Shown: positions 10,817-36,622, counted from the stretch's first letter. The stretch is 36,663 bases of DNA from Candidatus Peregrinibacteria bacterium (GCA_016866815.1 VGKZ01000001.1:1-36663), one strand, 5' to 3'. Translations and numbers: made by a program. The notes: a model not told the origin generated them from the letters alone.

Positions 10817-10846
10817 ACTCTAGGGGAGGCGGGGAGGGGGGGTCAA
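10817..10846 (-). promoter_or_regulatory. possible rpsF promoter: -35 TTGACC, 18-nt spacer, -10 TAGAGT (minus sense)
   Basis: The + strand reads ggtcaa at 10841-10846 and actcta at 10817-10822. The spacer is the G-rich tract. Confidence 0.25.
10821..10841. repeat. G-rich heptamers TAGGGGA GGCGGGG AGGGGGG (+ strand)
   Basis: Read directly. The composition matches the GTAGGGG family found in the island. Confidence 0.6.
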
Positions 10847-10879
10847 GGAATTATGTCGCATTTATACTCACCAGCTCTC

Positions 10880-11027
10880 GTATGGAGGGCCCACCTTCGC
10901 ACTGGATGGCTTGCCAACCGTAGCAATGCGGTTTCGTGCACGCAAAAATCACACTGACCTTCAGTGCTACGGTGGGCAGACTACGCGTTGCGTTCAAGTC
11001 GCCCACCTACGCGCGAGATGGCTTGCC
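10880..11027. repeat. two copies of a 36-nt imperfect direct repeat (10880-10915 and 10992-11027, about 31/36 identical) flanking stem-rich sequence
   Basis: The repeat reads CCCACCT[T/A]CGC[ACTG/GCGA]GATGGCTTGCCAACCG[T/A]AGCA. The intervening stems are CCGTAGCA/TGCTACGG, CACTGA-CCT-TCAGTG and GGTGGGCaGACT-N14-AGTCGCCCACC. Confidence 0.7.
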
Positions 11028-11109
11028 AACCGAAGCAGCAGGGCTATGGTGAACCGCCAGCCTGCGCTCGCCTCCGGGCGAGCTTCGGCCGGCAACCTGC
11101 TGCGCAGGT

Positions 11110-11250
11110 TGGAGCCGTCGATGGGGACCTGCCTGCCGGCAGGCAGGTTGAACCCATGACCCCGTCCTTACCATGGACGTGCCGCTGCGCGGCAGAGTTT
11201 TTTTATGTGTGCGTCTCACGTTGTTCGACGCACCACTGAGCTACAACGGC
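11110..11250 (-). pseudogene. tRNA-Thr(GGU)-like gene interrupted by two insertions (probable pseudogene)
   Basis: It aligns end to end with the intact copy at 11324-11398, with three exceptions. The 20-nt palindrome CCTGCCTGCCGGCAGGCAGG (11128-11147) sits in the T-loop. A 49-nt block (11183-11231) replaces 3 nt of the D-arm. There is one acceptor-stem change, C to T, giving a G-U pair. Confidence 0.7.
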
Positions 11251-11323
11251 AAATGGAGCCCTGAAAGGACTGCGTCTCAAGCCACTCACGCTTCGCTCAC
11301 GCTCGCGTTCGAGAGCTTTCGAC

Positions 11324-11398
11324 TGGAGCCGTCGATGGGGATTGAACCCATGACCCCGTCCTTACCATGGACGTGCTCTACCACTGAGCTACGACGGC
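11324..11398 (-). tRNA. tRNA-Thr (anticodon GGU), CCA encoded
   Basis: Manual cloverleaf: GCCGTCG TA GCTC AGTGGTA GAGC A CGTCC AUGGUAA GGACG GGGTC ATGGG TTCAATC CCCAT CGACGGC T CCA. Confidence 0.9.
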
Positions 11399-11419
11399 GT
11401 ATGCGCACGCGAGTCTACA

Positions 11420-11839: not shown

Positions 11840-11852
11840 ATCTGCTAAAAGT

Positions 11853-13391: not shown

Positions 13392-13423
13392 GGAGATTGT
13401 GATGGTACACCAAAGCAGTTGCA

Positions 13424-13449
13424 CTTTCTTTTCAGCAGTGAAAAGAAAG
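13424..13449. promoter_or_regulatory. 26-bp perfect inverted repeat CTTTCTTTTCA-GCAG-TGAAAGAAAG-type site (arms CTTTCTTTTCA / TGAAAAGAAAG) in the sufS / GT-C divergent region; candidate operator or 5'-UTR hairpin
   Basis: The 11-bp arms were verified as exact reverse complements. Confidence 0.4.
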
Positions 13450-13551
13450 GGCATTCCATCAATGAGAAGCGAGCGCTGTATTCAAGAGCAGCGTTATTCT
13501 TCTATGGAAACTTCATTCACAGTAAACCGCGTATCCTGTACCCTTTCTCCG

Positions 13552-16335
13552 ATGGAACGAAAAATGATTCAGATCCTCTCAGCGTCGCTGTTTATTGTGA
13601 TGCTCCTCTGGGGTGGCTATACGCTTCTCTACTACCTCGGCGTGCCGGTTCACGGGGCGGTACTCCTGCCGGATGACGTGCATAAGTCCCTTGAAGGCAT
13701 CTGTGCCGGCGACGATGTCGTGTGCAGAGGTGCATTCGCACTCTTTGGTGTCCTGTGGCACTCACTTACACGTGTGCCGTTTGTGATCTGGTATGCGGTG
13801 ACGTGTATTGTGCTGTATGCGCTTGTTCTTGCATGGCGATACGTTCGAACGCTGCGTTGGAATGCGGAGATTGTCCTGAAGCCTTGGCATGTGCTTGCGT
13901 TGTGCTTCGCATCGATGTGGTTGCTTTTCACCTGCCTGAGTCTCTCGAACAACGGTGACCTGCCCTTCAATCATTTGATAGAACCGCTGCCGGATGTCTA
14001 TAAGAACGCCGGACCGCAGGCGATCGTTGCCCTCCGGGAAAATTACGATGCGCTCAAGGAGCGGGGATGTCTGAAGCCGATCGGCACCTTCGGTGCAGCG
14101 GAAGCGAGTGAAATCACATTCTTTTGTTTCCAGACATCGTTCTTCACGCGCGTTGTTCCTCCGCTCATCTTCACCCTGCTTTTTCTGTGTGAACTTTTGG
14201 TGCTGGGCCGATTCCTCTTACGGAAGGCACTGCGCATCAGTACAGATAGCTTGCTGGAAGAAGCGGTTCTTTCGTTGGGTGTCGGTGCCTGTACGATGGT
14301 AGCGGCGTTATGGGTTCTTGCAGTTGCGCATGTCTTTATCATGCCTGTCGGTTGGGCGTTGGCGCTCTTGCTCCCGTTGGTGTTGTTTTGGGATGCACGG
14401 TATTGGTTGGATCGATTTCTGCATGCGGAGTGGAGAGTACATGTGCCGTGGTGGAGTCCGGTGCTGCTGCTTTCATGGTTTCTGCTCAGCTATCTTGCGT
14501 TCAATTTCATCAATATTGTTCGCCCCTTCCCGATCGGATGGGATGACCTTGGAAGTTACCTGAACAGGCCGCGACAACTCGTCAGCTACGGGCATTTCAT
14601 TTTCTCGATGTCCGCGTTCCAGTGGGAGTACCTGACGGCTCTCGGATTCCTGCTCTTCGGGTTCGAAAGCACTTTCGGCGCCACAGCATCGCTTGCCATC
14701 AACTGGACGCAGGGCCTTCTGGCGGTGCTGATCATCATGATGTTCGTCCGGACATATCTCGGTAAAGGCAGGGGACTTCTCTCGGCAACTCTCTACTACA
14801 CACTCCCGCTCGTCGGACATTTTTCGTTCGCCGATATGAAGATCGACAATGCGGTCTTCAGTATGGGTGCACTCGCGACGTTCATGCTCCTGAGAGGAAC
14901 TATCCGTGACGATGAGCAGTCATCGTCTACGGAAGCATGGCGTCACATTCTGCTTGCAGGCGTTTTCGTAGGCTTTGCATTCGCCATGAAGGTGACGGCG
15001 ATCATGGTGCTGATGGCTCTTGGAGCAGCTCTTGCCGGTATCGTTCTTCACCCTCTCGGCTTCGTTGCCGGTGTCATCGGAGCGTGTGCTGTCCTCATCG
15101 AGCAGGGTGCGTTGAACCTGGCGGGACTTCTGGAGCGCGTCGGCTACGATCCACATTTGATTGCCCCACAAACGGTTGCAATGGTATTCATCCTGATTGG
15201 CCTGGTGCCGCTTGCGGCAGCAGCGTATATGGGCAGGGCACGGTTGAGGAATTTCGTCATTCTCACCGCCATCTTCATTGGCGGGTTTGTTGCAGCGGTT
15301 CTGCCGTGGATGCAGTACAACAATATTGTGAGCGGTAGCATTGTGCCGAAGATCGCATTGGGCGCCCCGAACACTATCGGACCCATTCTGGATATGTTTG
15401 GTAACATAGATGATGCGACGTATTCACTGTCTCCGGAACTCAAGGTCGACCAGAAAGATCCAACATGTAAACCTTCTGGGGCAAGGGAAGAACTGGGGCG
15501 GTACTGGGGAACACGCACTGGCTGGGGACACTACATCACCCTGCCGTTCCGCAGTGTGATGAATCTCGACAGTGCGGGGTACTACGTCACCACGATTCCG
15601 GCGCTCCTTCTGTTTCCGCTCCTGCTTCTCCTGCCGTACTTTTGGCGTCGTGAAGGAAGGTGGCTCCGTTGGGTTTGGCTGACGACAGCGTTTCTCATTG
15701 TAGAGTGGATGTTCCTTGCGAACGGCATTCTCTGGTACGGCATCGGGATGTTCCTGGGTCTGGTGATCTGTCTGGAGGCGCTGCTTGCACGTGCGCCGGA
15801 TACGCTGAATCGCTCTGTGGCCGGTTTGCTGATTACCTGTTCACTTCTGTTTTCTCTCGGACAACGTTTGTGGCAGTACGAGTCACAGAGGAATTTATTT
15901 GAGTACCCGCTCGGCAAGGTCTCAGCGAAGGCTATCCGTGAACGGACGATTCCGTTCTACGATGACATCACAGAAGTCGTTCTTGACCGCGCACGGAAGA
16001 TTCCCGACAGACCCCTTCTCTTCCGCGTGGGAACGTTCATGCCGTACTTCGTACCAAGGAATCTCGAAGTCATCGGCATTAGTGATCACCAGCTTGATTT
16101 CTTCAATTGTCTCTACCAGGGCCGCGATCCAGAGGTGATGGTTGCCCGTCTCAAAGCACTCGGTTTCAACAGCATCGTCTTCGATACGAATGCGGCGACC
16201 ATCGAGCGTGACCAGAACGGTTCCCTTCACCAGAAAGTGCAGATGTTCGCTGATTTTATCAATAACCCGAAAGCAGGTCTGCAGGTGGTTATCAACGATC
16301 CGACTGCGGGAGTAGCGTTCATTCTGATTCCGTAA
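13552..16335 (+). CDS. large polytopic membrane protein, putative GT-C-fold glycosyltransferase with a C-terminal soluble domain
   Basis: About 927 aa with more than 15 hydrophobic segments. An early extracytoplasmic loop carries an acidic motif (FPIGWDDLGSY). The C-terminal tail of about 190 aa is non-membrane. The track ORF start at 13039 is antisense to sufS, so I chose ATG 13552 (or 13564). Confidence 0.7.
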   Translation: MERKMIQILSASLFIVMLLWGGYTLLYYLGVPVHGAVLLPDDVHKSLEGICAGDDVVCRGAFALFGVLWHSLTRVPFVIWYAVTCIVLYALVLAWRYVRTLRWNAEIVLKPWHVLALCFASMWLLFTCLSLSNNGDLPFNHLIEPLPDVYKNAGPQAIVALRENYDALKERGCLKPIGTFGAAEASEITFFCFQTSFFTRVVPPLIFTLLFLCELLVLGRFLLRKALRISTDSLLEEAVLSLGVGACTMVAALWVLAVAHVFIMPVGWALALLLPLVLFWDARYWLDRFLHAEWRVHVPWWSPVLLLSWFLLSYLAFNFINIVRPFPIGWDDLGSYLNRPRQLVSYGHFIFSMSAFQWEYLTALGFLLFGFESTFGATASLAINWTQGLLAVLIIMMFVRTYLGKGRGLLSATLYYTLPLVGHFSFADMKIDNAVFSMGALATFMLLRGTIRDDEQSSSTEAWRHILLAGVFVGFAFAMKVTAIMVLMALGAALAGIVLHPLGFVAGVIGACAVLIEQGALNLAGLLERVGYDPHLIAPQTVAMVFILIGLVPLAAAAYMGRARLRNFVILTAIFIGGFVAAVLPWMQYNNIVSGSIVPKIALGAPNTIGPILDMFGNIDDATYSLSPELKVDQKDPTCKPSGAREELGRYWGTRTGWGHYITLPFRSVMNLDSAGYYVTTIPALLLFPLLLLLPYFWRREGRWLRWVWLTTAFLIVEWMFLANGILWYGIGMFLGLVICLEALLARAPDTLNRSVAGLLITCSLLFSLGQRLWQYESQRNLFEYPLGKVSAKAIRERTIPFYDDITEVVLDRARKIPDRPLLFRVGTFMPYFVPRNLEVIGISDHQLDFFNCLYQGRDPEVMVARLKALGFNSIVFDTNAATIERDQNGSLHQKVQMFADFINNPKAGLQVVINDPTAGVAFILIP

Positions 16336-16340
16336 GACCG

Positions 16341-17009: not shown

Positions 17010-17023
17010 CATACCGTCCTGTC

Positions 17024-17383: not shown

Positions 17384-17431
17384 GGCTGAATGGGTGTAAA
17401 AGCCATCATTCTTCCTTCATACTACTTGCTG

Positions 17432-18529
17432 ATGAAGAGCATTGTATTGCTATCACCGTATTGGAAAGAAAAACATCGTTGGATGGCCAGCTCTCCCAAA
17501 CTCGCCGAACTCTGGCAGAGGCTGGGGTACCGCGTGATTGCGGTGTGCATGGGTTCGGAGAGCAAAGTCGATCGTGTCAGTGACACACTGACCATTCACT
17601 ACCGCAAAGACTTGTTTCTGAAAGATCCGTGGAACTACGGCATTGCATTTGGATTTGCCGGATATGTGCGCCGTCTCATCCGGAAGGAAAAACCCGATGT
17701 TATCGTGGCCAATAAACTTCTGTTCTGGAGTTCGCTTTGCGTCATCCCGCTCACATTCACTGGTCATAGAGTCCTCGTCCTCACAGATGCACTGGTTGGT
17801 ATGACCTGGTGGCCGCGCGGAAAGATTCCGCAGCTGTGTGCAGCCATCTACGCATGGACGTTCGGGTGGCTGATTCTCCTCTGCGCAGACCGTGTCGTCA
17901 CATTCCATCCGCAGCCGGAGGGGTTGCTGCGAAGGCTCGGTATAGCTAAAAAAACACAGGTAATTCCGACAGGAATTGATGCGGGAGCGTGGGGTGTAGG
18001 GGGTAGGGGGTTGGGCAATACAGTGAATGTGACGTATGTCGGTCGTTTGGAATCCATAAAAGGTGTCGATGATTTTCTGGCGGCCGTGGTGCCGATGAAA
18101 AAATATTGCCCTTCACTCTCGGTGCAGGTCATCGGTTGGTTTGAACCCGGACATCCTCTGGTCACTGAATACGCTCCGGAGGTGAACTTCACCGGTCTGC
18201 GCGATGACATTCCGAAGATTCTTGCGGAGTGTGACATCTTCGTTCTGCCTAGTCACAGCGAAGGGCTCAGCAATGCACTGATGGAGGCTATGGCGAGCGG
18301 GTGCGCATGCATTGCAACGGATGTCGGAGGCAACCGTTTCCTCATTCAGAACGGTGTTTCAGGGTTTCTCTATCCGGCGGGCGATCGTGCTGCACTCGCT
18401 GCGCATGTCCGTCGTCTCATCGAAGATCCGGTGAAGAGAAAAGCAATGGGGGAAGCTGCGCGCAAAAGGATAGAAGAGCAGTTTGATTGGGGTGTTGTAG
18501 GTAAGAAGTACGAAAAACTTTTCGCATGA
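17432..18529 (+). CDS. GT4 family glycosyltransferase
   Basis: The EX7E motif reads LPSHSEGLSNALMEAMASGCACIATDVGG. ATG 17432 (MKSIVLLSPYW) was chosen. Confidence 0.85.
   Translation: MKSIVLLSPYWKEKHRWMASSPKLAELWQRLGYRVIAVCMGSESKVDRVSDTLTIHYRKDLFLKDPWNYGIAFGFAGYVRRLIRKEKPDVIVANKLLFWSSLCVIPLTFTGHRVLVLTDALVGMTWWPRGKIPQLCAAIYAWTFGWLILLCADRVVTFHPQPEGLLRRLGIAKKTQVIPTGIDAGAWGVGGRGLGNTVNVTYVGRLESIKGVDDFLAAVVPMKKYCPSLSVQVIGWFEPGHPLVTEYAPEVNFTGLRDDIPKILAECDIFVLPSHSEGLSNALMEAMASGCACIATDVGGNRFLIQNGVSGFLYPAGDRAALAAHVRRLIEDPVKRKAMGEAARKRIEEQFDWGVVGKKYEKLFA
17989..18016. repeat. G-rich heptamer array GTGGGGT GTAGGGG GTAGGGG GTTGGGC
   Basis: It is read in frame as AWGVGGRGLG in the GT4 interdomain linker. 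It contains four G-runs. Confidence 0.85.
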
Positions 18530-19599
18530 AGAAAAAAGTTGTCATTCTTTCGGCGTTTCTCACACCGTTTCGTAGCGGTGCGGAGGCATGCGCGGAGGAA
18601 GTGCCGCTCATTCTCTCAGAGGAGTATGATTTTGTGATCATCACCTCCCGCATGCGCAGAAGTTTGCCGAAGCGGGACATGTTGCAGGGAAAAATTCCCG
18701 TCATCAGAGTGGGAATCGGCATCGCACGTGTCGATAAATGGTTGTATCCGTTTTTAGCTTCTCTGGAAGCCAGAAAACACAAGCCGGATATTGTTCATGC
18801 GATCCTGGAAACCTTTGCGGGTCTCGGATTATTGCTGTGTAAATTCACTGTGCCCTCAGCAAAAAGGATTCTTACATGCCAGACAACGAACAGAAGTTTC
18901 TTCAAAGGCACCATCGTCCGGTCGGCGGAAACAGTTACTGCGATCAGTAACCATCTTGCTGACATCGTCAGGAAACTTGGAAGAGGCGATGTCGTGATCA
19001 TTCCGAACGGTATTCACGTGAAGCAATTTGCAGAGGCGACGCGAACGTATACGAAGGTTCCGGGGAGAATCCTCTCTGTCGGGCGTTTGGAGAAGATGAA
19101 AGGCGTCGACCTCTTACTCAAGGCATTTGCGAAGCTCAATGACTCTTCCGCGACACTACGCATTGTCGGTAACGGCACGCAGCGTGCAGTGCTGACGGCA
19201 CTGGCGAAGGAACTTGGCATTCACGATCGCACGACGTTTGTCGGCCACGTTCCGCCTGCAGATCTCTACAGAGAATATGCCGAGGCAGATGTCTTTTGCG
19301 GCTTTTCTCGTAGTGAAGCACTGGGGAATGTATTCATTGAAGCCATGGCAGCAGAGTGTGTTGTGTTAGCTTCGGATATTGGAGGAATCAAAGAGATTGT
19401 TCCTCAAGAGAGCAGAATCACATTGGATTCATCGCCGGAGATTGTTGCCAGCAGACTCCAGGAATGTTTTATGAAGGACGAATCCGCTCGGTCAACAATC
19501 CGTCAATCCATGATGCACAATTTCAATTGGTCAGTGATAGCACCGCAGTACGCAGCGCTTTATGACCGTCTCCTCTCCCGCACCAGCGCCGCCGCCTGA
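18526..19599 (+). CDS. GT4 family glycosyltransferase
   Basis: There is an ATGA overlap with the upstream gene. Motifs seen: LSVGRLEKMKGVD and SRSEALGNVFIEAMAAECVVLASDIGG. Confidence 0.85.
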   Translation: MKKKVVILSAFLTPFRSGAEACAEEVPLILSEEYDFVIITSRMRRSLPKRDMLQGKIPVIRVGIGIARVDKWLYPFLASLEARKHKPDIVHAILETFAGLGLLLCKFTVPSAKRILTCQTTNRSFFKGTIVRSAETVTAISNHLADIVRKLGRGDVVIIPNGIHVKQFAEATRTYTKVPGRILSVGRLEKMKGVDLLLKAFAKLNDSSATLRIVGNGTQRAVLTALAKELGIHDRTTFVGHVPPADLYREYAEADVFCGFSRSEALGNVFIEAMAAECVVLASDIGGIKEIVPQESRITLDSSPEIVASRLQECFMKDESARSTIRQSMMHNFNWSVIAPQYAALYDRLLSRTSAAA

Positions 19600-20270: not shown

Positions 20271-20298
20271 GAGCTTCTAGCTTATAGCTTCCCGCTTT
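20271..20298. repeat. heptamer array GAGCTTC TAGCTTA TAGCTTC CCGCTTT (NNAAGCT family, in rmlA sense orientation)
   Basis: Read directly. The minus-sense TAAGCT (20279-20284) lies 8 nt upstream of the rmlA ATG. Confidence 0.8.
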
Positions 20299-20328
20299 TG
20301 GACGAAACCGAATGCTCATGGAATTACT

Positions 20329-20356
20329 ACAAGCTGAAAGCTGAAAGCGATAAGCT
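20329..20356. repeat. heptamer array ACAAGCT GAAAGCT GAAAGCG ATAAGCT
   Basis: Read directly. TAAGCT (20351-20356) lies 8 nt upstream of the rmlB ATG. Confidence 0.8.
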
Positions 20357-20364
20357 GGGCAGGC

Positions 20365-21357: not shown

Positions 21358-22460
21358 AGATTGTTCTCGCTACCGGCATCTACCCTCCCGCCATCGGCGG
21401 TCCAGCAACGTATGTCGAAAACCTTGCGCGCGAATTGCATGCAGCCGGGCATGAGGTGACAGTGGTGACGTATGGCAATAGGGGGTTGGGGGTTGGGGGT
21501 AGGGAGCGGAATGTTGTCTCTGTGCCGTTGGGTTTTCCCATTCTTCGTTGGTTTGCTTACGCAAGGGTACTACGCAGAGAAGCCTGCAACGCGGACATCG
21601 TCTATGCATTTTCTTCGGTGAGCTGCGGGATTCCGCTCTGGCTCTCCGGCGTGAGGAAGCCGAAGAGAGTACTACGTCTCGGAGGAGATTTTCTGTGGGA
21701 GAGGTACACGGAAAGAGGAGGGCAGAAGAGTTTGAGGGAGTGGTATGGAGCGAGAGGTTGGTTGTTAGTTATTAGTTATTGGTTATTGCGGCAATACGAT
21801 CACATCGTGTTTTCCACGGAGTTTCAGAAACAAATTTACGAAGAGCATTACAGAATATTGCCAAAACATTCGGTCATCGAGAATGCAATGGAGCCGATAA
21901 GCCAGCAGCAATACACCAGAAACCAAAAACCATATACGCCGTTTCGCTTGCTCTTCATGGGTCGTTTTGTGGGCTTCAAAAACCTCTTCGCGCTCATCGG
22001 AGCGATGACGGAATTGCAGGATTGCGTGCTGACGCTCGTTGGCGAGGGCCCTCTCGATGACGCATTGCGCGATCATGCCGAAGAACTGAATTTACATCAC
22101 AAAGTTCGGTTCGTCGGGCCCGTGCACGGCGAGGAGAAGCGGCAGATTTTCGCCAGGCATGATCTCCTGGTATTGCCGTCGCTCACGGAAATCAGCCCGA
22201 ATACAGCGCTGGAAGCCGCGGCATCGGGATTACCCGTTCTGCTGACGGAGGAACACGGGTTGAGCGAGCAGTTATTGAGCGCAATCGATGTCGCACCTCT
22301 GCAGACTCCGTCGCAGATTGCGGTTGCCGTTCGTGATGTGCGTGAAGCATGTGCCGGCATGCATCATCCGGGATATGCAGAAAGACCATGGAATACCGTC
22401 ATGAAAGAGCATTTGAATTTATTCGCTACGCTGGGTGATTTTTCCCCAAAGCATGCGTAG
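21354..22460 (+). CDS. GT4 family glycosyltransferase
   Basis: There is an ATGA overlap with rfbB. Motifs seen: MKIVLATGIYPPAIGGPATY and LPSLTEISPNTALEAAASGLPVL. Confidence 0.85.
   Translation: MKIVLATGIYPPAIGGPATYVENLARELHAAGHEVTVVTYGNRGLGVGGRERNVVSVPLGFPILRWFAYARVLRREACNADIVYAFSSVSCGIPLWLSGVRKPKRVLRLGGDFLWERYTERGGQKSLREWYGARGWLLVISYWLLRQYDHIVFSTEFQKQIYEEHYRILPKHSVIENAMEPISQQQYTRNQKPYTPFRLLFMGRFVGFKNLFALIGAMTELQDCVLTLVGEGPLDDALRDHAEELNLHHKVRFVGPVHGEEKRQIFARHDLLVLPSLTEISPNTALEAAASGLPVLLTEEHGLSEQLLSAIDVAPLQTPSQIAVAVRDVREACAGMHHPGYAERPWNTVMKEHLNLFATLGDFSPKHA
21477..21504. repeat. G-rich heptamer array AATAGGG GGTTGGG GGTTGGG GGTAGGG
   Basis: It is read in frame as NRGLGVGGRE and contains four G-runs. 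Confidence 0.85.
21758..21785. repeat. heptamer array TTGGTTG TTAGTTA TTAGTTA TTGGTTA
   Basis: It lies in the same GT4 gene and is read as GWLLVISYWLL. Confidence 0.85.
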
Positions 22461-29680: not shown

Positions 29681-29682
29681 TC

Positions 29683-30720
29683 ATGTTGCGTGTTTTCACC
29701 ACTGTGCTGCCCGATGTGCCCTATATCCCGTTGCTGTACCCGAATCTAGGCATACAACAGCGCGATTCCATCCTTTTTCTGAATAATGCGTTCGCCGGCA
29801 TGAAGGATAAGATGGTGGAGATCGTGGACCGGGTGGAGGATGCCGATTGCGTTCTCCTCGCACACAACTGGCCTTCACTGAAAGGGCATCGTGGCTTTGT
29901 CCATGCCCAGGCGAAGCTCGCTGCGGATCATCGGAAGCACCTGATCGTGTTCTGGCACGGTGACAGCGATGCCCCCGTCGATATTCCCGGTGCCATCGTC
30001 TTTCGCACATCCCTCTATCGGTACTGTACGCGCGCCAATGAAATCGCCATGCCCGCCTATGGTGAAGATCTTCTCGGTTCAGATACGCTGACACTCCGGG
30101 AGAAGCATGCCGGTCCTCCCGTTGTTGGTTTTTGCGGATGGGCGAAGTACAAAAATACGAAAAACATGTTTGGGACATTGGCACTGAACAGTCTCGTCCG
30201 TTTCGGGTCTGTCATGGGTCCCGAAGGGATGCTTGCGCATCGAAAGGGTTTGAGTTTTCGCAGGGAAGCGATTGCGGTTCTCGGTACTAGTGATGCGGTG
30301 AAGTGTGCTTTCCTCCTCCGATCGAGTTATTCCGGTCACAGCAAGACCATTGGCATGGATCCGGAGAACGCGCGCAGGGAGTACAGAGAAAATCTCCTTG
30401 GCAGCGATCTTGCGCTATGCGTCAAAGGCGACGGAAATTACAGTTATCGCTTCTATGAGGCTCTCAGTCTCGGCCGCATTCCATTACTCATCGATACACA
30501 GTGTGTTCTGCCGCTCGAAGAGACGATCGATTACCGCTCGTTCGTGCTCCGTGTGGATTACCGCGAGCTCGAGAGGCTTCCGGATATCATTGAGCGATGG
30601 TGGAACGAGATCAGACCGGATGAATTCACTGCTATGCAGAAGAAAGCGCGCGAAGCGTACGAGAAGTATCTGCGTGTCGACGCATTTTTGAGGTTTGTCG
30701 TACACCAGCTCGGCAGTTAA
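29683..30720 (+). CDS. exostosin (GT47)-like glycosyltransferase
   Basis: The exostosin-type C-terminal motif is LALCVKGDGNYSYRFYEALSLGRIPLLIDTQCVLPLEETIDYRSFVLRV. ATG 29683 lies 3 nt after the upstream stop. Confidence 0.78.
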   Translation: MLRVFTTVLPDVPYIPLLYPNLGIQQRDSILFLNNAFAGMKDKMVEIVDRVEDADCVLLAHNWPSLKGHRGFVHAQAKLAADHRKHLIVFWHGDSDAPVDIPGAIVFRTSLYRYCTRANEIAMPAYGEDLLGSDTLTLREKHAGPPVVGFCGWAKYKNTKNMFGTLALNSLVRFGSVMGPEGMLAHRKGLSFRREAIAVLGTSDAVKCAFLLRSSYSGHSKTIGMDPENARREYRENLLGSDLALCVKGDGNYSYRFYEALSLGRIPLLIDTQCVLPLEETIDYRSFVLRVDYRELERLPDIIERWWNEIRPDEFTAMQKKAREAYEKYLRVDAFLRFVVHQLGS

Positions 30721-31709
30721 CGCGCTTTCACCTCTACAATTTTTCTGGCGAGATCACTCCCATCTCCCTCTCTACACAGAAACACTTCTCTTCCATCCGT
30801 ACATCGCTCAGTGATGGCGTCATTCTTCGCGGTGATGACGGGAATACCGCAAGCGACGGCGTCGAATACTTTATGCGCGATGACGCGTCGCGCTTTACCC
30901 GAGGTGCCGAAGGTGCCGAGCGCGATATCCGCCGATCGGAGGTATTTCGGGAGCTCAGTGAGTGGCTGGAAGGGGAGTAATGTGACATTTCCCAGCTTCT
31001 TTTGTTCAATGAGTGTCTCGATCATCGGTTTCGTCTGGCCGCCGCCGATGAGCGTGAAGTGAATATCGGGATGTGTTTTTTCAAGCACTTCAGCTGCATG
31101 GACTATATGTTCCACTCCCTGCAGCGGGATGAAACTGCCGATGAAGAGTACATTGAATTTCCCTTTCTGTAAGAGGCTTTCCCGTGGCCCTGGCGTGAAG
31201 AGGTCCTCGCGGGTTCCGACGTACAACACGCGGATGCGTTTCGGGTTCAGGAAGAATCTTCGGACGAAAAATTGCTTGTGTGCTTCCGTATCAATCAGGA
31301 TTTCATCCGCCATATGACAGAGAACGATGTCGGCAAGGTACAGCAGCCATGACACAGGATTGATCCAGGAGAATTTCCTGCGATCGCTGACGAGCGTGTC
31401 ACTCATGGAGACGAATGCATCAAAGATCAGCTTTCTGCGGGGAAATCGGGTCAGAGCCCATGCCAGCGGCATGATGATGAAGCCGGGGAAGGTGACGAGG
31501 ACAACGGGGTGTAGGGGGTAGGGCGTAGGGGGTAGGGTGCGTATTTTTTGAATGAGCTCACGGTATTTGGCGAAAAGACCCTTTGCGATTGTATGACAAT
31601 CAACGATGGTAAAACCTTCGTTTGCGTATGTCTTGCACACGTTCACGTACCGCGGGGATTCATGGCTATGGAAGCCTATGGTGATCAGAGTGCTCTGCAC
31701 GTAGCGCAT
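30717..31709 (-). CDS. GT1/GT4-like glycosyltransferase
   Basis: Motifs seen: FNVLFIGSFIPLQGVEHIV, RVIAHKVFDAVACGIPVITAKND. Confidence 0.78.
   Translation of the reverse strand: MRYVQSTLITIGFHSHESPRYVNVCKTYANEGFTIVDCHTIAKGLFAKYRELIQKIRTLPPTPYPLHPVVLVTFPGFIIMPLAWALTRFPRRKLIFDAFVSMSDTLVSDRRKFSWINPVSWLLYLADIVLCHMADEILIDTEAHKQFFVRRFFLNPKRIRVLYVGTREDLFTPGPRESLLQKGKFNVLFIGSFIPLQGVEHIVHAAEVLEKTHPDIHFTLIGGGQTKPMIETLIEQKKLGNVTLLPFQPLTELPKYLRSADIALGTFGTSGKARRVIAHKVFDAVACGIPVITAKNDAITERCTDGREVFLCREGDGSDLARKIVEVKAR
31504..31538. repeat. G-rich heptamer array ACGGGGT GTAGGGG GTAGGGC GTAGGGG GTAGGGT (+ strand; antisense to the gene)
   Basis: It is translated on the minus strand as TLPPTPYPLHPV. Confidence 0.85.
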
Positions 31710-31733
31710 TGTACGGGAAATACGGAATGCTCT

Positions 31734-31817
31734 GTAAGCTAAAAGCTATAAGCTGTAAGCTAAAAGCTATAAGCTATAAGCTGTAAGCTAAACGCTATAA
31801 GCTGCAAGCTCAAAGCT
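31734..31817. repeat. 12 x NNAAGCT heptamer array with a 21-bp higher-order unit (GTAAGCT AAAAGCT ATAAGCT, two perfect copies then variants)
   Basis: Read directly. It occupies most of the divergent intergenic region 31710-31823. Confidence 0.9.
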
Positions 31818-31823
31818 TTTCCC

Positions 31824-32990
31824 ATGCGCATCGCTTACGTTACCCATACGCGGTTCCCGACGGAGAAGGCCCATGGCCATCAGGTGGCGCAGGTGTGCAG
31901 TGCCCTCGCCGCACTGGGTCACACGGTGACACTTGTCGTGCCGGATGTTCAAACAGGCGTCCGTCAGGATGCTTTTGCCTACTACGGGCTGCCGAAGAAT
32001 TTTTCCATCGAGAAAATCCATGCGTTCGACGCGCTTCATCATCCGTTGGTACCTGGTGCTCTCGCATTTCTCCTCAGTATGCGGTCGTACCGGAAATCAC
32101 TTCGCAATATTCTTTCCAAAAGGCGTTTTGATCTTCTGTACGCGCGGTCTCCGGTCATTCTGCCCACACTCGTTGAATCCGGAATGCCGGTGATCATAGA
32201 GCTGCATACGTTGCCCCGCAGGGGAAAGAGCGGTTTTGTGAAGTGGTGCAACCGCTGCAAGCGCGTGGTGTGCCTGACGACGCCGATGCGCGATGCGCTG
32301 GTCGGTTGGGGAGTCGCGAAGAAGAAAACGATGATCGAAGGTGATGCGGTTGATCTTGCACGCTTTGCAAAGCCTCTTGCGAAGTCTGCAGCAAAGAAAC
32401 ATCATCGGCTTCCTGCCGACAGTGTCGTGGTCGGATACGTCGGTTCACTCGTGACATTCGATCGTTTGCAGAAAGGAGTCGATCTCCTTGTCCGCGCTCT
32501 TGCTCGTATGAAGAAACAACATGTTCCCGTATTCGGTTTCATCGTCGGCGGTCCCGTGAAGTGGAGCGAACGGTACAGGAAGCTGGGGTACAGTCTCGGC
32601 CTCACACATCACGAAGTTCAATTTCATGTGGCGCTTCCCTCCAAACAGGTTCCTTCCGCACTCGCGGCGTGTGACATTCTGGTCTATCCGGCTCCCGCAT
32701 CCAAACATCCGTATTTCCGCCGCGACACATCACCGCTGAAACTCTTTGAGTACATGGCTGCGGGCGTACCCGTTGTTTGCGCCGATATTCCTCCCGTTCG
32801 CGATGTCGTCGATGCCACGATGGTGCGTTTTGCCGAGCCGGGAAGTCTTGCGTCCATAGCGGGGGGTATCAAGCACATACTGGAGAAGCCGAAAGAAGCC
32901 GCTGCGCGCGCGAAGAAGGCAAAAGAGGCGATGAAGGAGTACACCTGGGAGAAGCGGATGAAGCGTATCCTCGCGGGGTTATCGTCCTAG
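31824..32990 (+). CDS. GT4 family glycosyltransferase
   Basis: Motifs seen: MRIAYVTHTRFPTEKAHGHQV, VGYVGSL, SPLKLFEYMAAGVPVVCADIPP. Confidence 0.85.
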   Translation: MRIAYVTHTRFPTEKAHGHQVAQVCSALAALGHTVTLVVPDVQTGVRQDAFAYYGLPKNFSIEKIHAFDALHHPLVPGALAFLLSMRSYRKSLRNILSKRRFDLLYARSPVILPTLVESGMPVIIELHTLPRRGKSGFVKWCNRCKRVVCLTTPMRDALVGWGVAKKKTMIEGDAVDLARFAKPLAKSAAKKHHRLPADSVVVGYVGSLVTFDRLQKGVDLLVRALARMKKQHVPVFGFIVGGPVKWSERYRKLGYSLGLTHHEVQFHVALPSKQVPSALAACDILVYPAPASKHPYFRRDTSPLKLFEYMAAGVPVVCADIPPVRDVVDATMVRFAEPGSLASIAGGIKHILEKPKEAAARAKKAKEAMKEYTWEKRMKRILAGLSS

Positions 32991-33647: not shown

Positions 33648-33663
33648 CGCGTCGGAGTATAGC

Positions 33664-34740
33664 TCACGGTTTGTTCAAGAAAGGAGCGATATACTCCGCG
33701 GATTTTCGGATACTCTCCGGACTTGGATGCACGGTGTCCCAGGGGAGTGTTTCCACAGTGTTTCCGAACAGATCATACAGATCGATCACGGTGAAACCAT
33801 TCGCTTCTGCTGCCTCCCTCAGGCTCGGCCTGGTTGCGGTATGCATATTGTTGTCCGGCCATATGACGAAGAAACGTCGCTCCGGGAGTATGCGGGAGAA
33901 TGAGCGCAGTATTCTGCCGTACTCTTCCAGGTGTTTCGCATTCACCGTTTCCTGTTCCGCAACGACGGGTGTGCGATCGACCTTCTGTTTCGTTTTGCTC
34001 TGACGGAGATTGATGATTTTCTTCATTGCCTTATACAGTGCACTGTGAGAATTCAACCAGCACTGACGGGGGATGATGCTGAGTATCCCCTCTGTTATCG
34101 GCATGCAGTCGTCCTGTCCCGGTTGCCAGTCATGGGAGCGGAGAATTCCCATCTCATCCAGTTTGCCAGGCAGAAAACCGTCGAGGTCGTTCCAGAAGAA
34201 CACGATTACGACGGCATCCGGATTCATCTCTGCGATTTTGGTTTCATATGCGGCGACTTCCATCGTTAAGGAATAACCAGGGACAGCAGCGTTGATGACG
34301 CTGTGGTCCGGTTGAAGTTGCTCAAGCTGTGCGGCGAGGGTTTCATCGTTATCGACGCCGTAGCCGAAGGTCACTGAGTCACCGAGGAGGACGATGACGG
34401 GCTGTTGGTTGTTGGTTCTTGATTGTTGAGCAGCGTTCAAGCGGAATCCGTGTGCATCGGTACTCACGTGGGCTTTGTAGGCCGGTTCACGATCAAGGTT
34501 TGGTTTGAGCTCGTAGCTGATGCGCGGGTCTTCACTGGTTTGATAGATCTGCGGAGGATTGGGCTGCACAGTCTGGAGTCCGGTGATGCGGAGAGTGCAT
34601 TCCACGCCTGCAATGAACAGAACGACAGAACCGACTACGAGTATGCCGTTGATAAAAAAGGGCCGAATTGTCAAATGACTGGATAGTGAAGTGGTTCGCA
34701 AACGAGTAGCACGATACTGCAAAACCATCCAATCATCCAA
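33664..34740 (-). CDS. SGNH/GDSL hydrolase-family protein (membrane-anchored; candidate glycan O-acetyl esterase or transferase)
   Basis: It has an N-terminal TM helix. Block I is VIVLLGDSVTFGYG, a later block is VVIVFFWNDL, and the C-terminal block is DTVHPS. Confidence 0.8.
   Translation of the reverse strand: MDDWMVLQYRATRLRTTSLSSHLTIRPFFINGILVVGSVVLFIAGVECTLRITGLQTVQPNPPQIYQTSEDPRISYELKPNLDREPAYKAHVSTDAHGFRLNAAQQSRTNNQQPVIVLLGDSVTFGYGVDNDETLAAQLEQLQPDHSVINAAVPGYSLTMEVAAYETKIAEMNPDAVVIVFFWNDLDGFLPGKLDEMGILRSHDWQPGQDDCMPITEGILSIIPRQCWLNSHSALYKAMKKIINLRQSKTKQKVDRTPVVAEQETVNAKHLEEYGRILRSFSRILPERRFFVIWPDNNMHTATRPSLREAAEANGFTVIDLYDLFGNTVETLPWDTVHPSPESIRKSAEYIAPFLNKP
34403..34430. repeat. heptamer array TGTTGGT TGTTGGT TCTTGAT TGTTGAG
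   Basis: It lies inside the SGNH gene and is translated on the minus strand as QQSRTNNQQP, just before the GDS block. Confidence 0.85.
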
Positions 34741-34759
34741 CCATCTGACTACTGTATTG

Positions 34760-36622
34760 CTAATCCAATTCGAATTTTTCCAGGTATTCTTTGCTCTTCA
34801 GGATGCGGTTTTCAGGCATTTTCGTCTTCTCCAATAGGAAACTTCCCATGATGAGGTAATCCATGTGCGTATTCAGGAAACAGTTGAGCGCATCGCGCGG
34901 TGACTCCACGATCGGTTCCCCGCGGACATTGAACGAAGTGTTGATGATAACGGGACAGCCGGTCTGCTCTTCGAATGCTTTGATCAGGTCGTAGTAGAGT
35001 GGATTTTGATCGCGGTTGATGGTCTGGATACGCGCAGACCCGTCGACGTGCGTCACGGCGGGGATCTTGTCGCGTTTGTCCGGGTGAACGTCGGCGACCA
35101 GGAGCATGTACGGACTTTCGCGATCGAGCGCGAACCACTCTGCAGTTTTTTCCTCCAGTACCGTCGGTGCGAACGGGCGGAAGCTCTCGCGGAATTTGAT
35201 TTTCAGATTCACTTTCTGCCAGTTGTCTTTGTTGCGTGCATCGGCAATGATCGAGCGGTTCCCCAGCGAGCGGGGACCGTACTCCATGCGCCCCTGGAAC
35301 CATCCTATGACGTTGGTGCCGGTGAGGAGTTTTGAGCTTTGAGCGATGAGCTGTGAGCGATGAGAGAATTTCGTATAGAGAAGATTTTGTTGTTTGAGGA
35401 ATGTTTCGATTGCATCGTCGGAATAGTCATTACCGAGATAGACGTTTTCCATGCGCGATGTCCCTGAGCCTCCGTATTTTTTGTACCAAATCGACAGTGC
35501 CACGCCGAGCGCGCCTCCTGCATCGCCGGATGCCGGCTGAATCCAGATGTCTCTGAAGAGCCCGGATCGCAGAATCTTGCCGTTAGCGACGCAATTGAGC
35601 GCTACGCCACCCGCAAGGCACAGGTATTCGCTCTTCGTGACGTCCTTCGCATGACGGACGATGCCCATCATCACCTCTTCGGTGATTTCCTGCAGCGAGC
35701 GCGCGACGTCCTTGTGGAATTGTTCCAGCGAAGACTCCTGTTTCCTGCGTGGTTGTCCGAAAAGCCCTTCCATTGCGCCTCCGGTCATCGTCAAGCCGTG
35801 CTCGTAGGAGAAATACTTCATGTTCAGACGGTACGAACCATCCGGTTTGAGTTCGATCAGCTCATGCATTTCCTTCATATACTTCGGTTCTCCGTACGGC
35901 GCGAGACCCATCACTTTGTACTCCGCACTGTTCACTTTGAACCCGAGGTAGTACGTGATGGCGGAGTACAGAAGCCCGAGCGAGTGCGGGTAGTGAATCT
36001 CCTTGAGCAGCGTGACGTCGTTGCCAGTGCCTTTGCCGATGGTCGTTGTGGCCCACTCGCCTACGCCGTCCACCGTCACGACGGCGGCATCGGGAAAACC
36101 GCTGCAGTAAAAGGCGGATGCAGCGTGCGATTCATGGTGCGGAACGTAGAGAATGTCTCCTGCATACTGCAGCTCCTTTCGGATACGATCTGCTATCCAA
36201 AGTTTCTTCGTCATCCATTCCTTCATTGCCGGGAGAAACTGCGTGAGGCCGCGCGGCCACATCTTGATCGCGGTCGGCAGTATCCGGTCGAGGAATTTCA
36301 GGAGAGGTTTTTCGTAGAAGCCGACGCATGCGACATCCCTCATCGTGATTCCGGCGTGCCTTAGAGCCTGTTCAATAGCGTGTACGGGCAGTGATTCATC
36401 CTGCTTTTTCCGCGTGTAGCGTTCCTCCTGCGCTGCGAACAGGATCTCACCATCGCGTAGCAGCACGGCTGCAGCATCGTGGTAGTCGCAGGAGATGCCG
36501 AGAATGTAGACGGGATTGGACGTAGGACGTAGGGCGTAGGGGATAGGGCGTAGGGCTGAGAGGGGCTCTCTCAAAATTGTCGTTCCATGGATTGCGTTGT
36601 CTGCGGCTCGGAGGGAATCCAA
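34760..36622 (-). CDS. carbamoyltransferase (NodU/CmcH family)
   Basis: Motifs seen: ILGISCDYHDAAAVLLRDGEILFAAQEERYTRKK, HHESHAASAF, GWFQGRMEYGPRSLGNRSIIADAR, FRPFAP, INTSFNVRGEPIV. An N-terminal extension of about 40 aa contains a heptamer array. Confidence 0.9.
   Translation of the reverse strand: MDSLRAADNAIHGTTILREPLSALRPIPYALRPTSNPVYILGISCDYHDAAAVLLRDGEILFAAQEERYTRKKQDESLPVHAIEQALRHAGITMRDVACVGFYEKPLLKFLDRILPTAIKMWPRGLTQFLPAMKEWMTKKLWIADRIRKELQYAGDILYVPHHESHAASAFYCSGFPDAAVVTVDGVGEWATTTIGKGTGNDVTLLKEIHYPHSLGLLYSAITYYLGFKVNSAEYKVMGLAPYGEPKYMKEMHELIELKPDGSYRLNMKYFSYEHGLTMTGGAMEGLFGQPRRKQESSLEQFHKDVARSLQEITEEVMMGIVRHAKDVTKSEYLCLAGGVALNCVANGKILRSGLFRDIWIQPASGDAGGALGVALSIWYKKYGGSGTSRMENVYLGNDYSDDAIETFLKQQNLLYTKFSHRSQLIAQSSKLLTGTNVIGWFQGRMEYGPRSLGNRSIIADARNKDNWQKVNLKIKFRESFRPFAPTVLEEKTAEWFALDRESPYMLLVADVHPDKRDKIPAVTHVDGSARIQTINRDQNPLYYDLIKAFEEQTGCPVIINTSFNVRGEPIVESPRDALNCFLNTHMDYLIMGSFLLEKTKMPENRILKSKEYLEKFELD
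35331..35365. repeat. heptamer array TTTGAGC TTTGAGC GATGAGC TGTGAGC GATGAGA
   Basis: It lies inside the carbamoyltransferase gene and is translated on the minus strand as SHRSQLIAQSSKL. Confidence 0.85.
36515..36563. repeat. G-rich heptamer array ATTGGAC GTAGGAC GTAGGGC GTAGGGG ATAGGGC GTAGGGC TGAGAGG
   Basis: Seven units on the + strand, translated on the minus strand as PLSALRPIPYALRPTSN. It lies immediately upstream of the conserved YILGIS core. Confidence 0.85.

What the first reader, a model, noticed from the sequence alone, without database searches (positions are those of the whole stretch)
10821..36563. G-rich GTAGGGG-family arrays are locked to one DNA strand whatever the gene orientation, and match the G-quadruplex consensus
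Five arrays are all G-rich on the + strand: 10821-10841, 17989-18016, 21477-21504, 31504-31538 and 36515-36563.

Two lie in + strand genes, where they read as GVGGRGLG and RGLGVGGRE. Two lie in - strand genes, where they read as PPTPYPLHP and RPIPYALRPTS. One is in the rpsF promoter spacer.

The T/G-rich arrays at 9889-9909, 21758-21785, 34403-34430 and 35331-35365 are also G+T-rich on the + strand.

Orientation follows the DNA strand and not the coding strand. This argues for a DNA-level origin or function (replication-strand-specific slippage, or secondary structure) rather than selection on the peptide.

Each G-rich array has four or more runs of GGG or longer, separated by 2-4 nt. That is the canonical G3+N1-7 quadruplex pattern.
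Basis: partly seen in the sequence, partly recalled or inferred. Interest (0 to 1): 0.62.

Follow-up and report, generated by a model that had tools for sequence, protein, structure and literature searches.

The report
Co-oriented G-rich seven-base repeat arrays
Short tandem repeats of seven bases, some G-rich enough to fold into four-stranded DNA, are scattered through a surface-sugar gene cluster of an uncultured Peribacteria bacterium and all face the same way here, but this is a known kind of bacterial repeat and the "one strand only" rule rests on six or seven cases in one 56-kb stretch.

Summary
The sequence facts hold. The arrays sit where stated, the peptides read as stated, and the 10821 tract is the spacer of a promoter-like site upstream of rpsF. 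All six canonical G4 motifs in the window are on the + strand and none on the - strand. This becomes 7:0 once about 20 kb of flanking contig is added.

The window comes from an uncultured Candidatus Peribacteria (CPR) population in lake metagenomes. The arrays belong to a known class: heptanucleotide tandem repeats (STRR-like), including the G-quadruplex-forming G-rich heptamers described in Xanthomonas and Nostoc. That study found no leading/lagging preference.

Third-codon-position skew marks the + strand as the probable leading strand. G runs of 4 or more outside the arrays are already 63% on the + strand.

"Locked" is not shown:
- Peribacteria relatives carry G4 motifs on both strands (13:8 in favour of the G-skewed strand).
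- The T/G-rich family appears in both orientations just outside the window.
- The AAGCTAW arrays follow gene orientation.
- Sense-strand arrays carry GTT where GTA would create an in-frame TAG, so coding constraint does shape them.

Verdict: a real, ordinary repeat class in a new lineage, with a suggestive but unproven local strand bias.

The parts
10814..10842 (+). G-rich tract with an 8-nt unit (GGGGAGGC, about 2.5 copies, ending in a G7 run). It is a canonical G4 motif on the + strand. It forms the 18-nt spacer of a - strand promoter-like site (10846-10817) 55-83 nt upstream of the rpsF start, so it is antisense to rpsF.
17983..18016 (+). GGGGGTA/GGGGGTT heptamer array (about 3.4 copies, 5 G tracts) on the sense strand of a GT4 glycosyltransferase (17390-18529 +). 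It encodes AWGVGGRGLG in the linker between the two Rossmann-like domains.
21477..21504 (+). GGGGGTT heptamer array (about 3.4 copies, 4 G tracts) on the sense strand of a GT4 glycosyltransferase (21333/21354-22460 +). It encodes NRGLGVGGRE.
31504..31538 (+). GGGGGTA/GGGCGTA heptamer array (about 4.4 copies, 5 G tracts) antisense to a glycosyltransferase (30717-31709 -). It encodes TLPPTPYPLHPV. This is a 4-5 aa longer loop than in most orthologues. The L136 relative has a CTCTCAG array at the same site.
36512..36565 (+). GGACGTA to GGGCGTA/GGGGATA heptamer array (about 5 copies) antisense to the carbamoyltransferase (34760-36574 -). It is translated as an N-terminal extension, because the ancestral ATG (M-x-K-P in 586-aa orthologues) now reads ACG and the only start codons are TTG at 36574 and 36622.
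15478..15509 (+). Non-repetitive canonical G4 motif on the sense strand of the large membrane glycosyltransferase-like gene (13462-16335 +).
9889..9909 (+). GGTTTWT heptamer array, intergenic between rpsR and yebC (both on the - strand). The same family occurs as inverted hairpin-forming pairs just outside the window.
21758..21788 (+). TTGGTTA/TTAGTTA heptamer array on the sense strand of the GT4 gene (aa 142-151, GWLLVISYWLL).
34403..34430 (+). TGTTGGT heptamer array antisense to the GDSL-family gene (33664-34728 -). It encodes AQQSRTNNQQ just before the catalytic GDS block, in a loop 2-5 aa longer than in orthologues.
35327..35365 (+). Degenerate TGAGCKW heptamer periodicity antisense to the carbamoyltransferase (aa 420-431). 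It lies over a conserved helix (family consensus SQLI..SSLLEG) and is only 1 aa longer than in orthologues. The close relatives P0003, P0012 (which carries the same linker peptide as the L136 gene), P0016 and P0112 show the same SQL repeat.
20272..20290 (-). AAGCTAW-family array read on the - strand (AAGCTATAAGCTAGAAGCT). It ends 1 nt upstream of the ATG of the - strand nucleotidyltransferase gene (19560-20270).
20331..20357 (+). AAGCTGA-family array ending 8 nt upstream of the ATG of the + strand dehydratase gene (20365-21357).
31735..31817 (+). TAAGCTA array, about 12 copies, ending 6 nt upstream of the ATG of the + strand GT4 gene (31824-32990). Together with the two arrays above, this shows the family follows gene orientation, not DNA strand.
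860..888 (+). AATTATC heptamer array, 13 nt downstream of the DUF1858 gene stop.

Best explanation
**What it is.** These are heptanucleotide simple-sequence-repeat arrays of the STRR / "G-rich heptamer" kind, in a Candidatus Peribacteria (CPR) genome.

**How they arise (inferred).** They arise in situ by replication slippage that starts from native 7-mers.

**Where they persist.**
- They persist only where they do no harm: in intergenic leaders and in flexible loops or linkers of fast-evolving polysaccharide-cluster genes.
- G-rich units read as Gly-rich peptides in sense and as Pro-rich peptides in antisense.
- They must preserve the frame and avoid stop codons.

**G4 potential.** The G-rich subfamily has 4-6 G tracts spaced 2-4 nt apart, so it can in principle fold into G-quadruplexes on the G-rich strand.

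**Why they are co-oriented here (inferred).**
- The common orientation in this 56-kb stretch reflects the general compositional asymmetry of the probable leading strand (G>C, T>A, and G runs about 63:37).
- That asymmetry biases which 7-mers seed arrays and how the arrays drift.
- Small numbers add to the effect.
- It is not a strict strand lock.

**Shown versus inferred.**
- Shown: the anatomy, the coding constraint, the stability of the arrays, the strand asymmetry, and the presence of both orientations in relatives.
- Inferred: the slippage origin, actual G4 folding, and the identity of the leading strand.
For: **Period and repeat class**
- Period 7 is specifically enriched.
- Four or more unit families occur in the window: GGGGGTA, TTGGTTA/GGTTTWT, TGAGCKW and AAGCTAW.
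- Heptamer arrays with lineage-specific units occur in other Peribacteria MAGs.
- The GTAGGG and CTCTCAG units occur in many phyla.

**Published precedent**
- G-rich heptamers in Xanthomonas and Nostoc form G4 in vitro, prefer four units, and show no leading/lagging preference (PMC4692102).

**Leading-strand inference**
- Third-position GC skew in + strand letters is +0.027 in + genes and +0.074 in - genes. T exceeds A in both.

**Background asymmetry**
- G runs of 4 or more outside arrays: 54 G to 25 C in + genes and 32 G to 23 C in - genes.
- In relatives, the G4+/C4+ run counts usually follow the sign of the skew.

**Both orientations in relatives**
- L140, L145, L138 and L398 carry motifs on both strands.
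- Overall count: 13 on the G-skewed strand and 8 on the C-skewed strand.

**In-situ origin and coding constraint**
- Unit gradient and lost ATG at 36512.
- The linker array lies over a conserved helix.
- GTT replaces GTA where TAG would be in frame.

**Stability**
- The arrays are identical in the 11 other assemblies (ENA, JGI and Logan contigs, L120-L134) that overlap them. Contigs from four runs lie on the window with no indels.
Against: - 7 of 7 G4 motifs on one strand is still more extreme than the 63% background predicts (p about 0.04).
- In L399, the one relative locus with GTAGGG-type arrays, all 3 motifs also sit on the G-skewed strand.
- In strongly skewed loci of other phyla, array orientation agreed with the skew 13:3 in the genome set. 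The metagenome set did not show this.
- No genome-wide data exist for this organism, so a strong bias cannot be excluded.
- The slippage origin is inferred. No copy-number variant was observed.
Confidence: 0.55

Rival explanations
1. **True replication-coupled polarity.** In this lineage, G4-capable arrays are generated or tolerated only when the G-rich strand is the leading strand (that is, the lagging-strand template). One possible reason is that a G4 on the other template stalls the fork in a small CPR genome with few helicases. Orientation would therefore follow the replichore and ignore transcription.
For: - 7:0 motifs over about 56 kb, with genes in both orientations.
- The one array found after the hypothesis was made (window-equivalent 44865-44907) is again on the + strand.
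- The + strand is the G- and T-rich strand at third codon positions.
- In L399, 3 of 3 motifs, and in L142 and L146 all motifs, are on the G-skewed strand.
Against: - The sample is small and comes from a single replichore segment.
- L140 has G-rich heptamer arrays on both strands, including its longest (93 nt) on the strand with local skew -0.158.
- Relatives overall are 13:8.
- No such bias was found in Xanthomonas or Nostoc, nor among neighbouring arrays in cyanobacteria (44 same, 47 opposite).
Confidence: 0.22
2. **Gene-relative regulatory G4 elements.** The arrays are placed relative to genes, mainly on the antisense or template strand near 5' ends, as reported for the Xanthomonas and Nostoc repeats. 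There they would modulate transcription or translation. Co-orientation on the + strand would be a by-product of the local gene layout.
For: - Four of six arrays are antisense to their gene. Two of them lie at or just upstream of the conserved 5' end: the rpsF promoter spacer and the carbamoyltransferase start.
- In L140 the unpaired arrays are antisense to the adjacent gene.
- Rehm et al. report a preference for 50 bp or less upstream on the antisense strand.
Against: - Two arrays plus one non-repeat motif are on the sense strand inside ORFs, so no gene-relative rule covers all cases.
- Most arrays are inside coding sequence, not in regulatory regions.
- There are no expression data.
Confidence: 0.1
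3. **Phase-variable contingency loci.** Gain or loss of one 7-nt unit shifts the reading frame and would switch individual glycosyltransferases of the surface-polysaccharide cluster on and off.
For: - All seven in-ORF heptamer arrays of the window lie in polysaccharide-cluster genes (GT4, GT, GDSL, carbamoyltransferase). None lies in the housekeeping genes of the left 13 kb or of the left extension.
- The 7-nt unit is not a multiple of 3.
Against: - Copy numbers are identical in every assembly, and contigs of four runs show no indels.
- The arrays are short (3-5 copies) and imperfect, which makes them poor slippage substrates.
- All ORFs are intact.
- The concentration in the cluster is equally explained by relaxed constraint on accessory genes.
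Confidence: 0.08

Closest known systems
Quadruplex-forming G-rich heptameric repeats of Xanthomonas (GGGAATC) and Nostoc (GGGGA(C/T)T), Rehm et al. 2015, PLoS One (PMC4692102)
   Same: - A 7-nt unit made of one G3-5 tract plus a 2-4 nt spacer.
- About four or more units, so the G3+N1-7 consensus is met.
- Dispersed arrays.
- Some sit just upstream of an ORF on the antisense strand, as at rpsF and the carbamoyltransferase start.
- Inverted pairs occur.
   Different: - The unit sequence differs (GGGGGTA, GGGGGTT, GGGCGTA).
- The host is a CPR bacterium.
- Four of six arrays are inside ORFs, whereas the published repeats are 68-93% intergenic.
- Here they are locally 7:0 on one strand, whereas the published genomes show no leading/lagging preference.
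- G4 folding was not tested here.
STRR, the short tandemly repeated repetitive heptanucleotide sequences of cyanobacteria (Mazel et al. 1990; from my own knowledge)
   Same: - Several different heptamer unit families are tandemly repeated at many loci of one genome.
- The pattern scan shows the same GTAGGG unit is abundant in Nostoc, Okeania, Moorena, Trichodesmium and others.
   Different: - The host is not a cyanobacterium.
- The arrays here are short (3-12 copies).
- Many are translated.
TAACTGA direct repeats upstream of start codons in Beggiatoaceae, cyanobacteria and Bacteroidetes (MacGregor 2015, PMC4679880)
   Same: The AAGCTAW arrays of the window (20272-20290 read in reverse, 20331-20357, 31735-31817) lie in sense orientation 1-8 nt upstream of start codons. 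This is the placement described for TAACTGA.
   Different: - The unit differs.
- This concerns the A-rich arrays, not the G-rich arrays of the finding.
Phase-variable simple-sequence contingency loci in glycosyltransferase genes of host-adapted pathogens
   Same: Repeats whose unit is not a multiple of 3 lie inside surface-glycan genes.
   Different: - No copy-number polymorphism was seen.
- The arrays are short and imperfect.
Tandem repeats of Borg elements that create disordered regions in proteins (PMC9879509)
   Same: In-frame nucleotide tandem repeats inside ORFs yield low-complexity Gly- or Pro-rich loops.
   Different: - Borg units are multiples of 3 inside genes and the repeats are perfect and recent.
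- Here the unit is 7 nt, the arrays are imperfect, and the frame is kept only by net length.

Membership tests
G-quadruplex-forming heptameric SSRs (Rehm et al. 2015) | Tandem 7-nt unit containing one G3+ tract | tested here: met
   Met for 17983, 21477, 31504 and 36512 (TRF period 7). 10814 and the extra array at window-equivalent 44865 have 8-nt units.
G-quadruplex-forming heptameric SSRs (Rehm et al. 2015) | Four or more consecutive G tracts (canonical G3+N1-7 motif) | tested here: met
   The regex scan gives 6 motifs in the window with 4-5 tracts each. G4Hunter peaks are 1.72-2.76.
G-quadruplex-forming heptameric SSRs (Rehm et al. 2015) | G4 formation shown biophysically (CD spectroscopy) | not testable with these tools
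   Prediction only. ViennaRNA with gquad places a G4 in the minimum-energy fold of all five arrays, at -13.9 to -18.5 kcal/mol against -0.7 to -12.8 without G4.
G-quadruplex-forming heptameric SSRs (Rehm et al. 2015) | Mostly intergenic, close to ORF ends | tested here: not met
   Four of the five arrays of the finding are translated. Only 10814 is intergenic.
G-quadruplex-forming heptameric SSRs (Rehm et al. 2015) | No leading/lagging strand preference | tested here: inconclusive
   7:0 over about 56 kb of this organism. 13:8 in Peribacteria relatives. No whole genome was available.
STRR (cyanobacterial heptanucleotide repeats) | Several heptamer unit families tandemly repeated at many dispersed loci | tested here: met
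   13 period-7 arrays of four or more unit families in 36.7 kb.
STRR (cyanobacterial heptanucleotide repeats) | Cyanobacterial host | tested here: not met
   The closest relatives of the window proteins are Candidatus Peribacteria MAGs.
Phase-variable contingency SSR | Copy number varies within or between populations | tested here: not met
   The arrays are identical in all ENA, JGI and Logan assemblies. No indels were seen in contigs of four runs. Only the consensus level was tested, at about 8x depth.
Phase-variable contingency SSR | Unit length and position such that one-unit slippage switches the gene | tested here: met
   The 7-nt units lie inside ORFs.
5'-leader heptamer direct repeats (TAACTGA type, MacGregor 2015); applies to the AAGCTAW arrays only | [quoted passage not shown] | tested here: met
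   The arrays end 1, 8 and 6 nt before the ATGs at 20270 (- strand), 20365 and 31824.

The most novel reading that the evidence does not exclude
In this Peribacteria lineage, G-quadruplex-capable repeat arrays are confined genome-wide to the leading strand, whatever the direction of transcription. This would be a replication-coupled polarity absent from Xanthomonas and Nostoc. It might reflect how a minimal CPR replisome, or a limited helicase set, copes with G4 DNA.
Probability: 0.2. Interest if true: 0.6.

Novelty: new member of a known kind. Interest (0 to 1): 0.3.

Why it matters
If the local 7:0 bias held genome-wide, it would be a natural experiment on which template strand tolerates G4 DNA in a bacterium with a very small replication and repair toolkit.

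As things stand, the result does three things:
- It extends heptanucleotide (STRR-like, G4-capable) repeats to the Candidate Phyla Radiation.
- It shows such repeats can be carried inside ORFs as Gly- or Pro-rich loops.
- It shows coding constraint acting on them, through avoidance of an in-frame TAG and a start codon overwritten and replaced by an upstream TTG.

It also cautions against reading strand "locks" from a handful of repeats on a single replichore segment.

Tried and rejected
1. **Genome-wide test in the source organism: not possible.** The species is not among the genome contigs representatives. Its best carbamoyltransferase match there is 73% identical.
   - GGGNGTAGGGNGTAGGGNGTAGGG returned mostly cyanobacteria.
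   - The 18-mer GGGGTGTAGGGGGTAGGG in metagenome contigs returned 117+ unrelated contigs and no listed contig from the source lake datasets.
   - CTCAGYTCTCAGYTCTCAG, aimed at the 697-kb contig of the nearest relative, returned mostly Acidobacteriota.
3. **A PheT-based locus search** gave only three small Peribacteria contigs.
4. **Walking along the 71-kb ENA contig**
   - The route through a homologue search returned only a 9.6-kb JGI contig.
   - A look-up with the window's own carbamoyltransferase did add 9.9 kb.
5. **Raw reads are not held for the lake runs.** Only contigs are kept, so minor copy-number variants could not be examined.
6. **Rejected readings**
   - tRNA or other RNA families: only tRNA-Thr was found.
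   - Cyanobacterial origin: only 2 HIP1 sites.
   - My first impression that L136 shares all three array sites. The GDSL arrays lie at different positions, about aa 136 against aa 104. Only the carbamoyltransferase linker and the GT loop coincide.

Full report
**1. Is the observation in the sequence?**

Yes.

Tandem Repeats Finder reports 37 rows, 15 of them with period 7. In my own period scan at a fixed score, periods 4-6, 8 and 10-12 gave no arrays, period 9 gave two and period 7 gave six. Seven-base periodicity is therefore a specific property of this DNA.

The pattern GGGNGTWGGGNGTWGGG, with up to one mismatch, has ten matches, all on the + strand. Shuffles give 0.01 expected.

A scan for the canonical quadruplex motif (G3+N1-7, four tracts) finds six on the + strand and none on the - strand. 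The six are at 10814, 15478, 17983, 21481, 31506 and 36532. G4Hunter at 2.0 or above gives four regions on + and none on -. At 1.5 or above it gives six regions against one.

ViennaRNA with quadruplex energies places a G4 in the minimum-energy fold of all five arrays. This is a prediction, not a measurement.

**2. Gene context**

Pfam scans show the following layout:
- A housekeeping block. It contains VanW, RecO, an FtsX-like protein, a PBP, YebC, rpsR-rpsF, tRNA-Thr and a class-V aminotransferase.
- From about 13 kb onward, a polysaccharide cluster. It contains many GT4 and GT2 glycosyltransferases, a dehydratase, a nucleotidyltransferase, a GDSL-family enzyme, a methyltransferase and a carbamoyltransferase.

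- AWGVGGRGLG lies in the interdomain linker of the GT4 gene at 17390-18529 (+).
- NRGLGVGGRE lies in the GT4 gene at 21333-22460 (+).
- TLPPTPYPLHPV lies in the glycosyltransferase at 30717-31709 (-).
- PLSALRPIPYALRPTSN lies at the head of the carbamoyltransferase (-).

The 10821-10841 tract is exactly the 18-nt spacer of a promoter-like site on the - strand, TTGACC-18-TAGAGT at 10846-10817. It lies 55-83 nt upstream of rpsF.

Two corrections are needed. That tract has an 8-nt unit, not the GTAGGGG unit. Within its stated limits it has only three G3+ runs.

**3. Whose DNA is this?**

- Exact-protein look-ups place the window on metagenome contigs from lake-water samples: ENA ERZ27247963, JGI Ga01941xx and several Logan assemblies.
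- The nearest relatives of the carbamoyltransferase, PheT and RF2 are Candidatus Peribacteria/Peregrinibacteria MAGs. Identity is 64-81% for the carbamoyltransferase.
- The organism is therefore an uncultured CPR bacterium. Its species is not among the reference genomes I could scan.
- Closed Peribacteria genomes are about 1.25 Mb and have a classical GC-skew plot (PMC4736985).

**4. What the arrays are**

They are heptanucleotide simple-sequence repeats.

Several unit families coexist in the window:
- GGGGGTA, GGGGGTT and GGGCGTA
- GGTTTWT, TTGGTTA and TGTTGGT
- TGAGCKW
- AAGCTAW
- AATTATC

Other Peribacteria loci carry heptamer arrays with their own units, such as CTCTCAG, AAGTGCC, GTCGAAG, GGGCTAG and AAAATTG. 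These often occur as convergent inverted pairs in intergenic regions.

The GTAGGG unit is abundant in cyanobacteria and also present in Anaerolineae, Planctomycetota, Nitrospirota and others. The CTCTCAG unit is widespread in Acidobacteriota.

This is the phenomenon known as STRR in cyanobacteria (my own knowledge). For G-rich units it matches the quadruplex-forming heptameric repeats of Xanthomonas and Nostoc. Rehm et al. showed G4 formation in vitro, a preference for four units, placement near ORF ends, and explicitly no preference for the leading or lagging strand (PMC4692102).

**5. Evidence on origin and constraint**

(a) *The 36512 array and the lost start codon.*
- The array grades from GGACGTA next to the gene into GGGCGTA and GGGGATA further away.
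- Almost all orthologues are 586 aa and begin M-x-K-P-x-Y-I-L-G. The window reads ACG TCC AAT CCC GTC TAC ATT CTC at that place.
- It has no ATG, GTG or TTG between TTG 36574 and the conserved block.
- The array has therefore absorbed the ancestral start and is translated as an N-terminal extension.

(b) *The 35327-35365 "array".*
- It lies over a conserved helix (family consensus SQLI..SSLLEG) and adds only one residue.
- Several close relatives show the same SQL periodicity.

(c) *Arrays shared with the relative L136.*
- L136 (72% identical carbamoyltransferase) has arrays at the same two sites, the carbamoyltransferase linker and the glycosyltransferase loop. In the second site it uses a different unit.
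- Its GDSL array lies elsewhere in the gene.

(d) *Stop-codon avoidance.*
- A perfect (GGGGGTA)n contains TAG in every frame, because a 7-nt unit cycles through all three phases in 21 nt.
- The two sense-strand arrays carry GTT exactly where TAG would be in frame, reading TTG (Leu).
- The antisense arrays keep GTA, whose reverse complement TACCCCC has no stop in any frame.

(e) *Stability.*
- The arrays are identical in all assemblies of this population.
- Contigs from four runs lie on the window with no indels.

Taken together, the arrays are DNA-level products, most simply of slippage seeded from native 7-mers. They are then filtered by coding constraint. This is why they sit in linkers and loops as Gly-rich (sense) or Pro-rich (antisense) segments of accessory glycan genes.

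**6. The strand claim**

Third-codon-position skew, read in + strand letters, is G>C in + genes (+0.027) and in - genes (+0.074). T exceeds A in both. The + strand is therefore most likely the leading strand.

Outside the arrays, G runs of four or more outnumber C runs on the + strand in + genes (54:25) and in - genes (32:23). Overall the + strand holds 63%.

I extended the region by 9.7 kb to the left and 9.9 kb to the right using contigs of the same population. The only new G4 motif is an 8-nt-unit array, GGGTTGTT x 5.9, at window-equivalent 44865-44907. It is again G-rich on the + strand and lies inside a - strand gene.

The tally over about 56 kb is 7:0 for motifs and 6:0 for arrays:

| Comparison | p value |
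|---|---|
| 6 arrays against 50:50 (two-sided) | 0.03 |
| 7 motifs against 50:50 (two-sided) | 0.016 |
| Against the 63% background | about 0.04-0.06 |

The bias is suggestive, in the direction the skew predicts, and independent of gene orientation. It rests on one segment of one replichore.

**7. Evidence against a lock**

- *The T/G-rich set.* It was chosen after the fact. The GGTTTWT family occurs C/A-rich on the + strand at window-equivalent 38196-38217 and -3569 to -3552. Each is half of an inverted pair that folds as a hairpin (z = -2.3 and -3.0).
- *The AAGCTAW arrays.* All three lie in sense orientation 1-8 nt upstream of start codons of divergent genes. They follow the gene, not the strand.
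- *The relative L140.* GGGCTAG-type arrays lie on both strands. One is a 93-nt array on the strand whose local skew is -0.158.
- *All Peribacteria-relative loci with significant skew.* G4 motifs split 13 on the G-skewed strand and 8 on the other. This is the background ratio.
- *Other phyla.* Array orientation agrees with locally masked skew in 41 loci and disagrees in 39. In the metagenome set the split is 19 against 28. Neighbouring arrays are about as often opposed as aligned (83:68 and 72:59). Only the most skewed genome loci show an excess (13:3).
- *The published Xanthomonas and Nostoc maps.* They show no replication-strand preference.

**8. Verdict**

The finding describes a real feature, and most of its description is correct. 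Its class is already known. The new points are the host lineage (CPR) and the degree to which the arrays are carried inside ORFs.

The "strand lock" remains a hypothesis with modest support. My estimates are:
- about 0.55 that the co-orientation is the general leading-strand asymmetry plus small numbers;
- about 0.2 that a strong replication-coupled polarity exists in this lineage;
- the remainder for gene-relative regulation or phase variation.

The decisive test is an orientation map of G-rich arrays against cumulative GC skew on a closed genome of this population. It could not be run with the data I could reach.

Noticed in passing
window 20272-20290 (- strand), 20331-20357, 31735-31817: AAGCTAW heptamer arrays lie in sense orientation and end 1, 8 and 6 nt before three start codons. 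No obvious Shine-Dalgarno sequence lies between array and ATG. This resembles the TAACTGA leader repeats of Beggiatoaceae. In lake metagenome contigs this stretch draws a depth of 320-4450x against about 8x for the rest, so the same repeat is carried by other abundant DNA.
   Followed up: partly
window 36505-36622: The carbamoyltransferase has lost the ancestral ATG (M-x-K-P in 586-aa orthologues now reads T-S-N-P). It must start at TTG 36574 or 36622 and be translated through the repeat array as a 17-33 aa extension.
   Followed up: yes
L129 16343-16394 (window-equivalent 38166-38217); L123 6113-6150 (window-equivalent -3589 to -3552): Convergent inverted pairs of GGTTTWT/CCAAAWA heptamer arrays fold as hairpins (z = -2.3 and -3.0). 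One sits directly after a stop codon, like a terminator. Similar inverted array pairs are common in intergenic regions of other Peribacteria MAGs (L138, L139, L140, L146, L390).
   Followed up: partly
L136 11165-11195 and 14035-14067, compared with window 35327-35365 and 31504-31538: A relative with 72% identical carbamoyltransferase has heptamer arrays at the same two protein positions as the window. In the glycosyltransferase loop its unit is unrelated (CTCTCAG against GGGGGTA). Either an old array turned over its unit, or the same loop was hit twice. This is unexplained.
   Followed up: partly
window 8888-9012: A 61-nt unit is duplicated in tandem (2.0 copies, 98% identical) between the convergent PBP and yebC genes.
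   Followed up: no
Peribacteria loci L136-L149, L389-L399: Runs of four or more G against C are asymmetric by about 1.5- to 2-fold and usually follow the sign of the locus GC skew. This is far more than the 2-8% mononucleotide skew.
   Followed up: partly
Metagenome-contig scan, L152-L268: The exact 18-mer GGGGTGTAGGGGGTAGGG, shared by the arrays at 17989 and 31504, occurs in more than 117 unrelated metagenome contigs. The same variant first unit (GGGGTGT) therefore recurs widely.
   Followed up: no
L123 2217-2241 (window-equivalent about -7485): A 9-nt repeat, GTAGGTATG x 2.9, G-rich on the + strand, lies inside the pheT gene.
   Followed up: no
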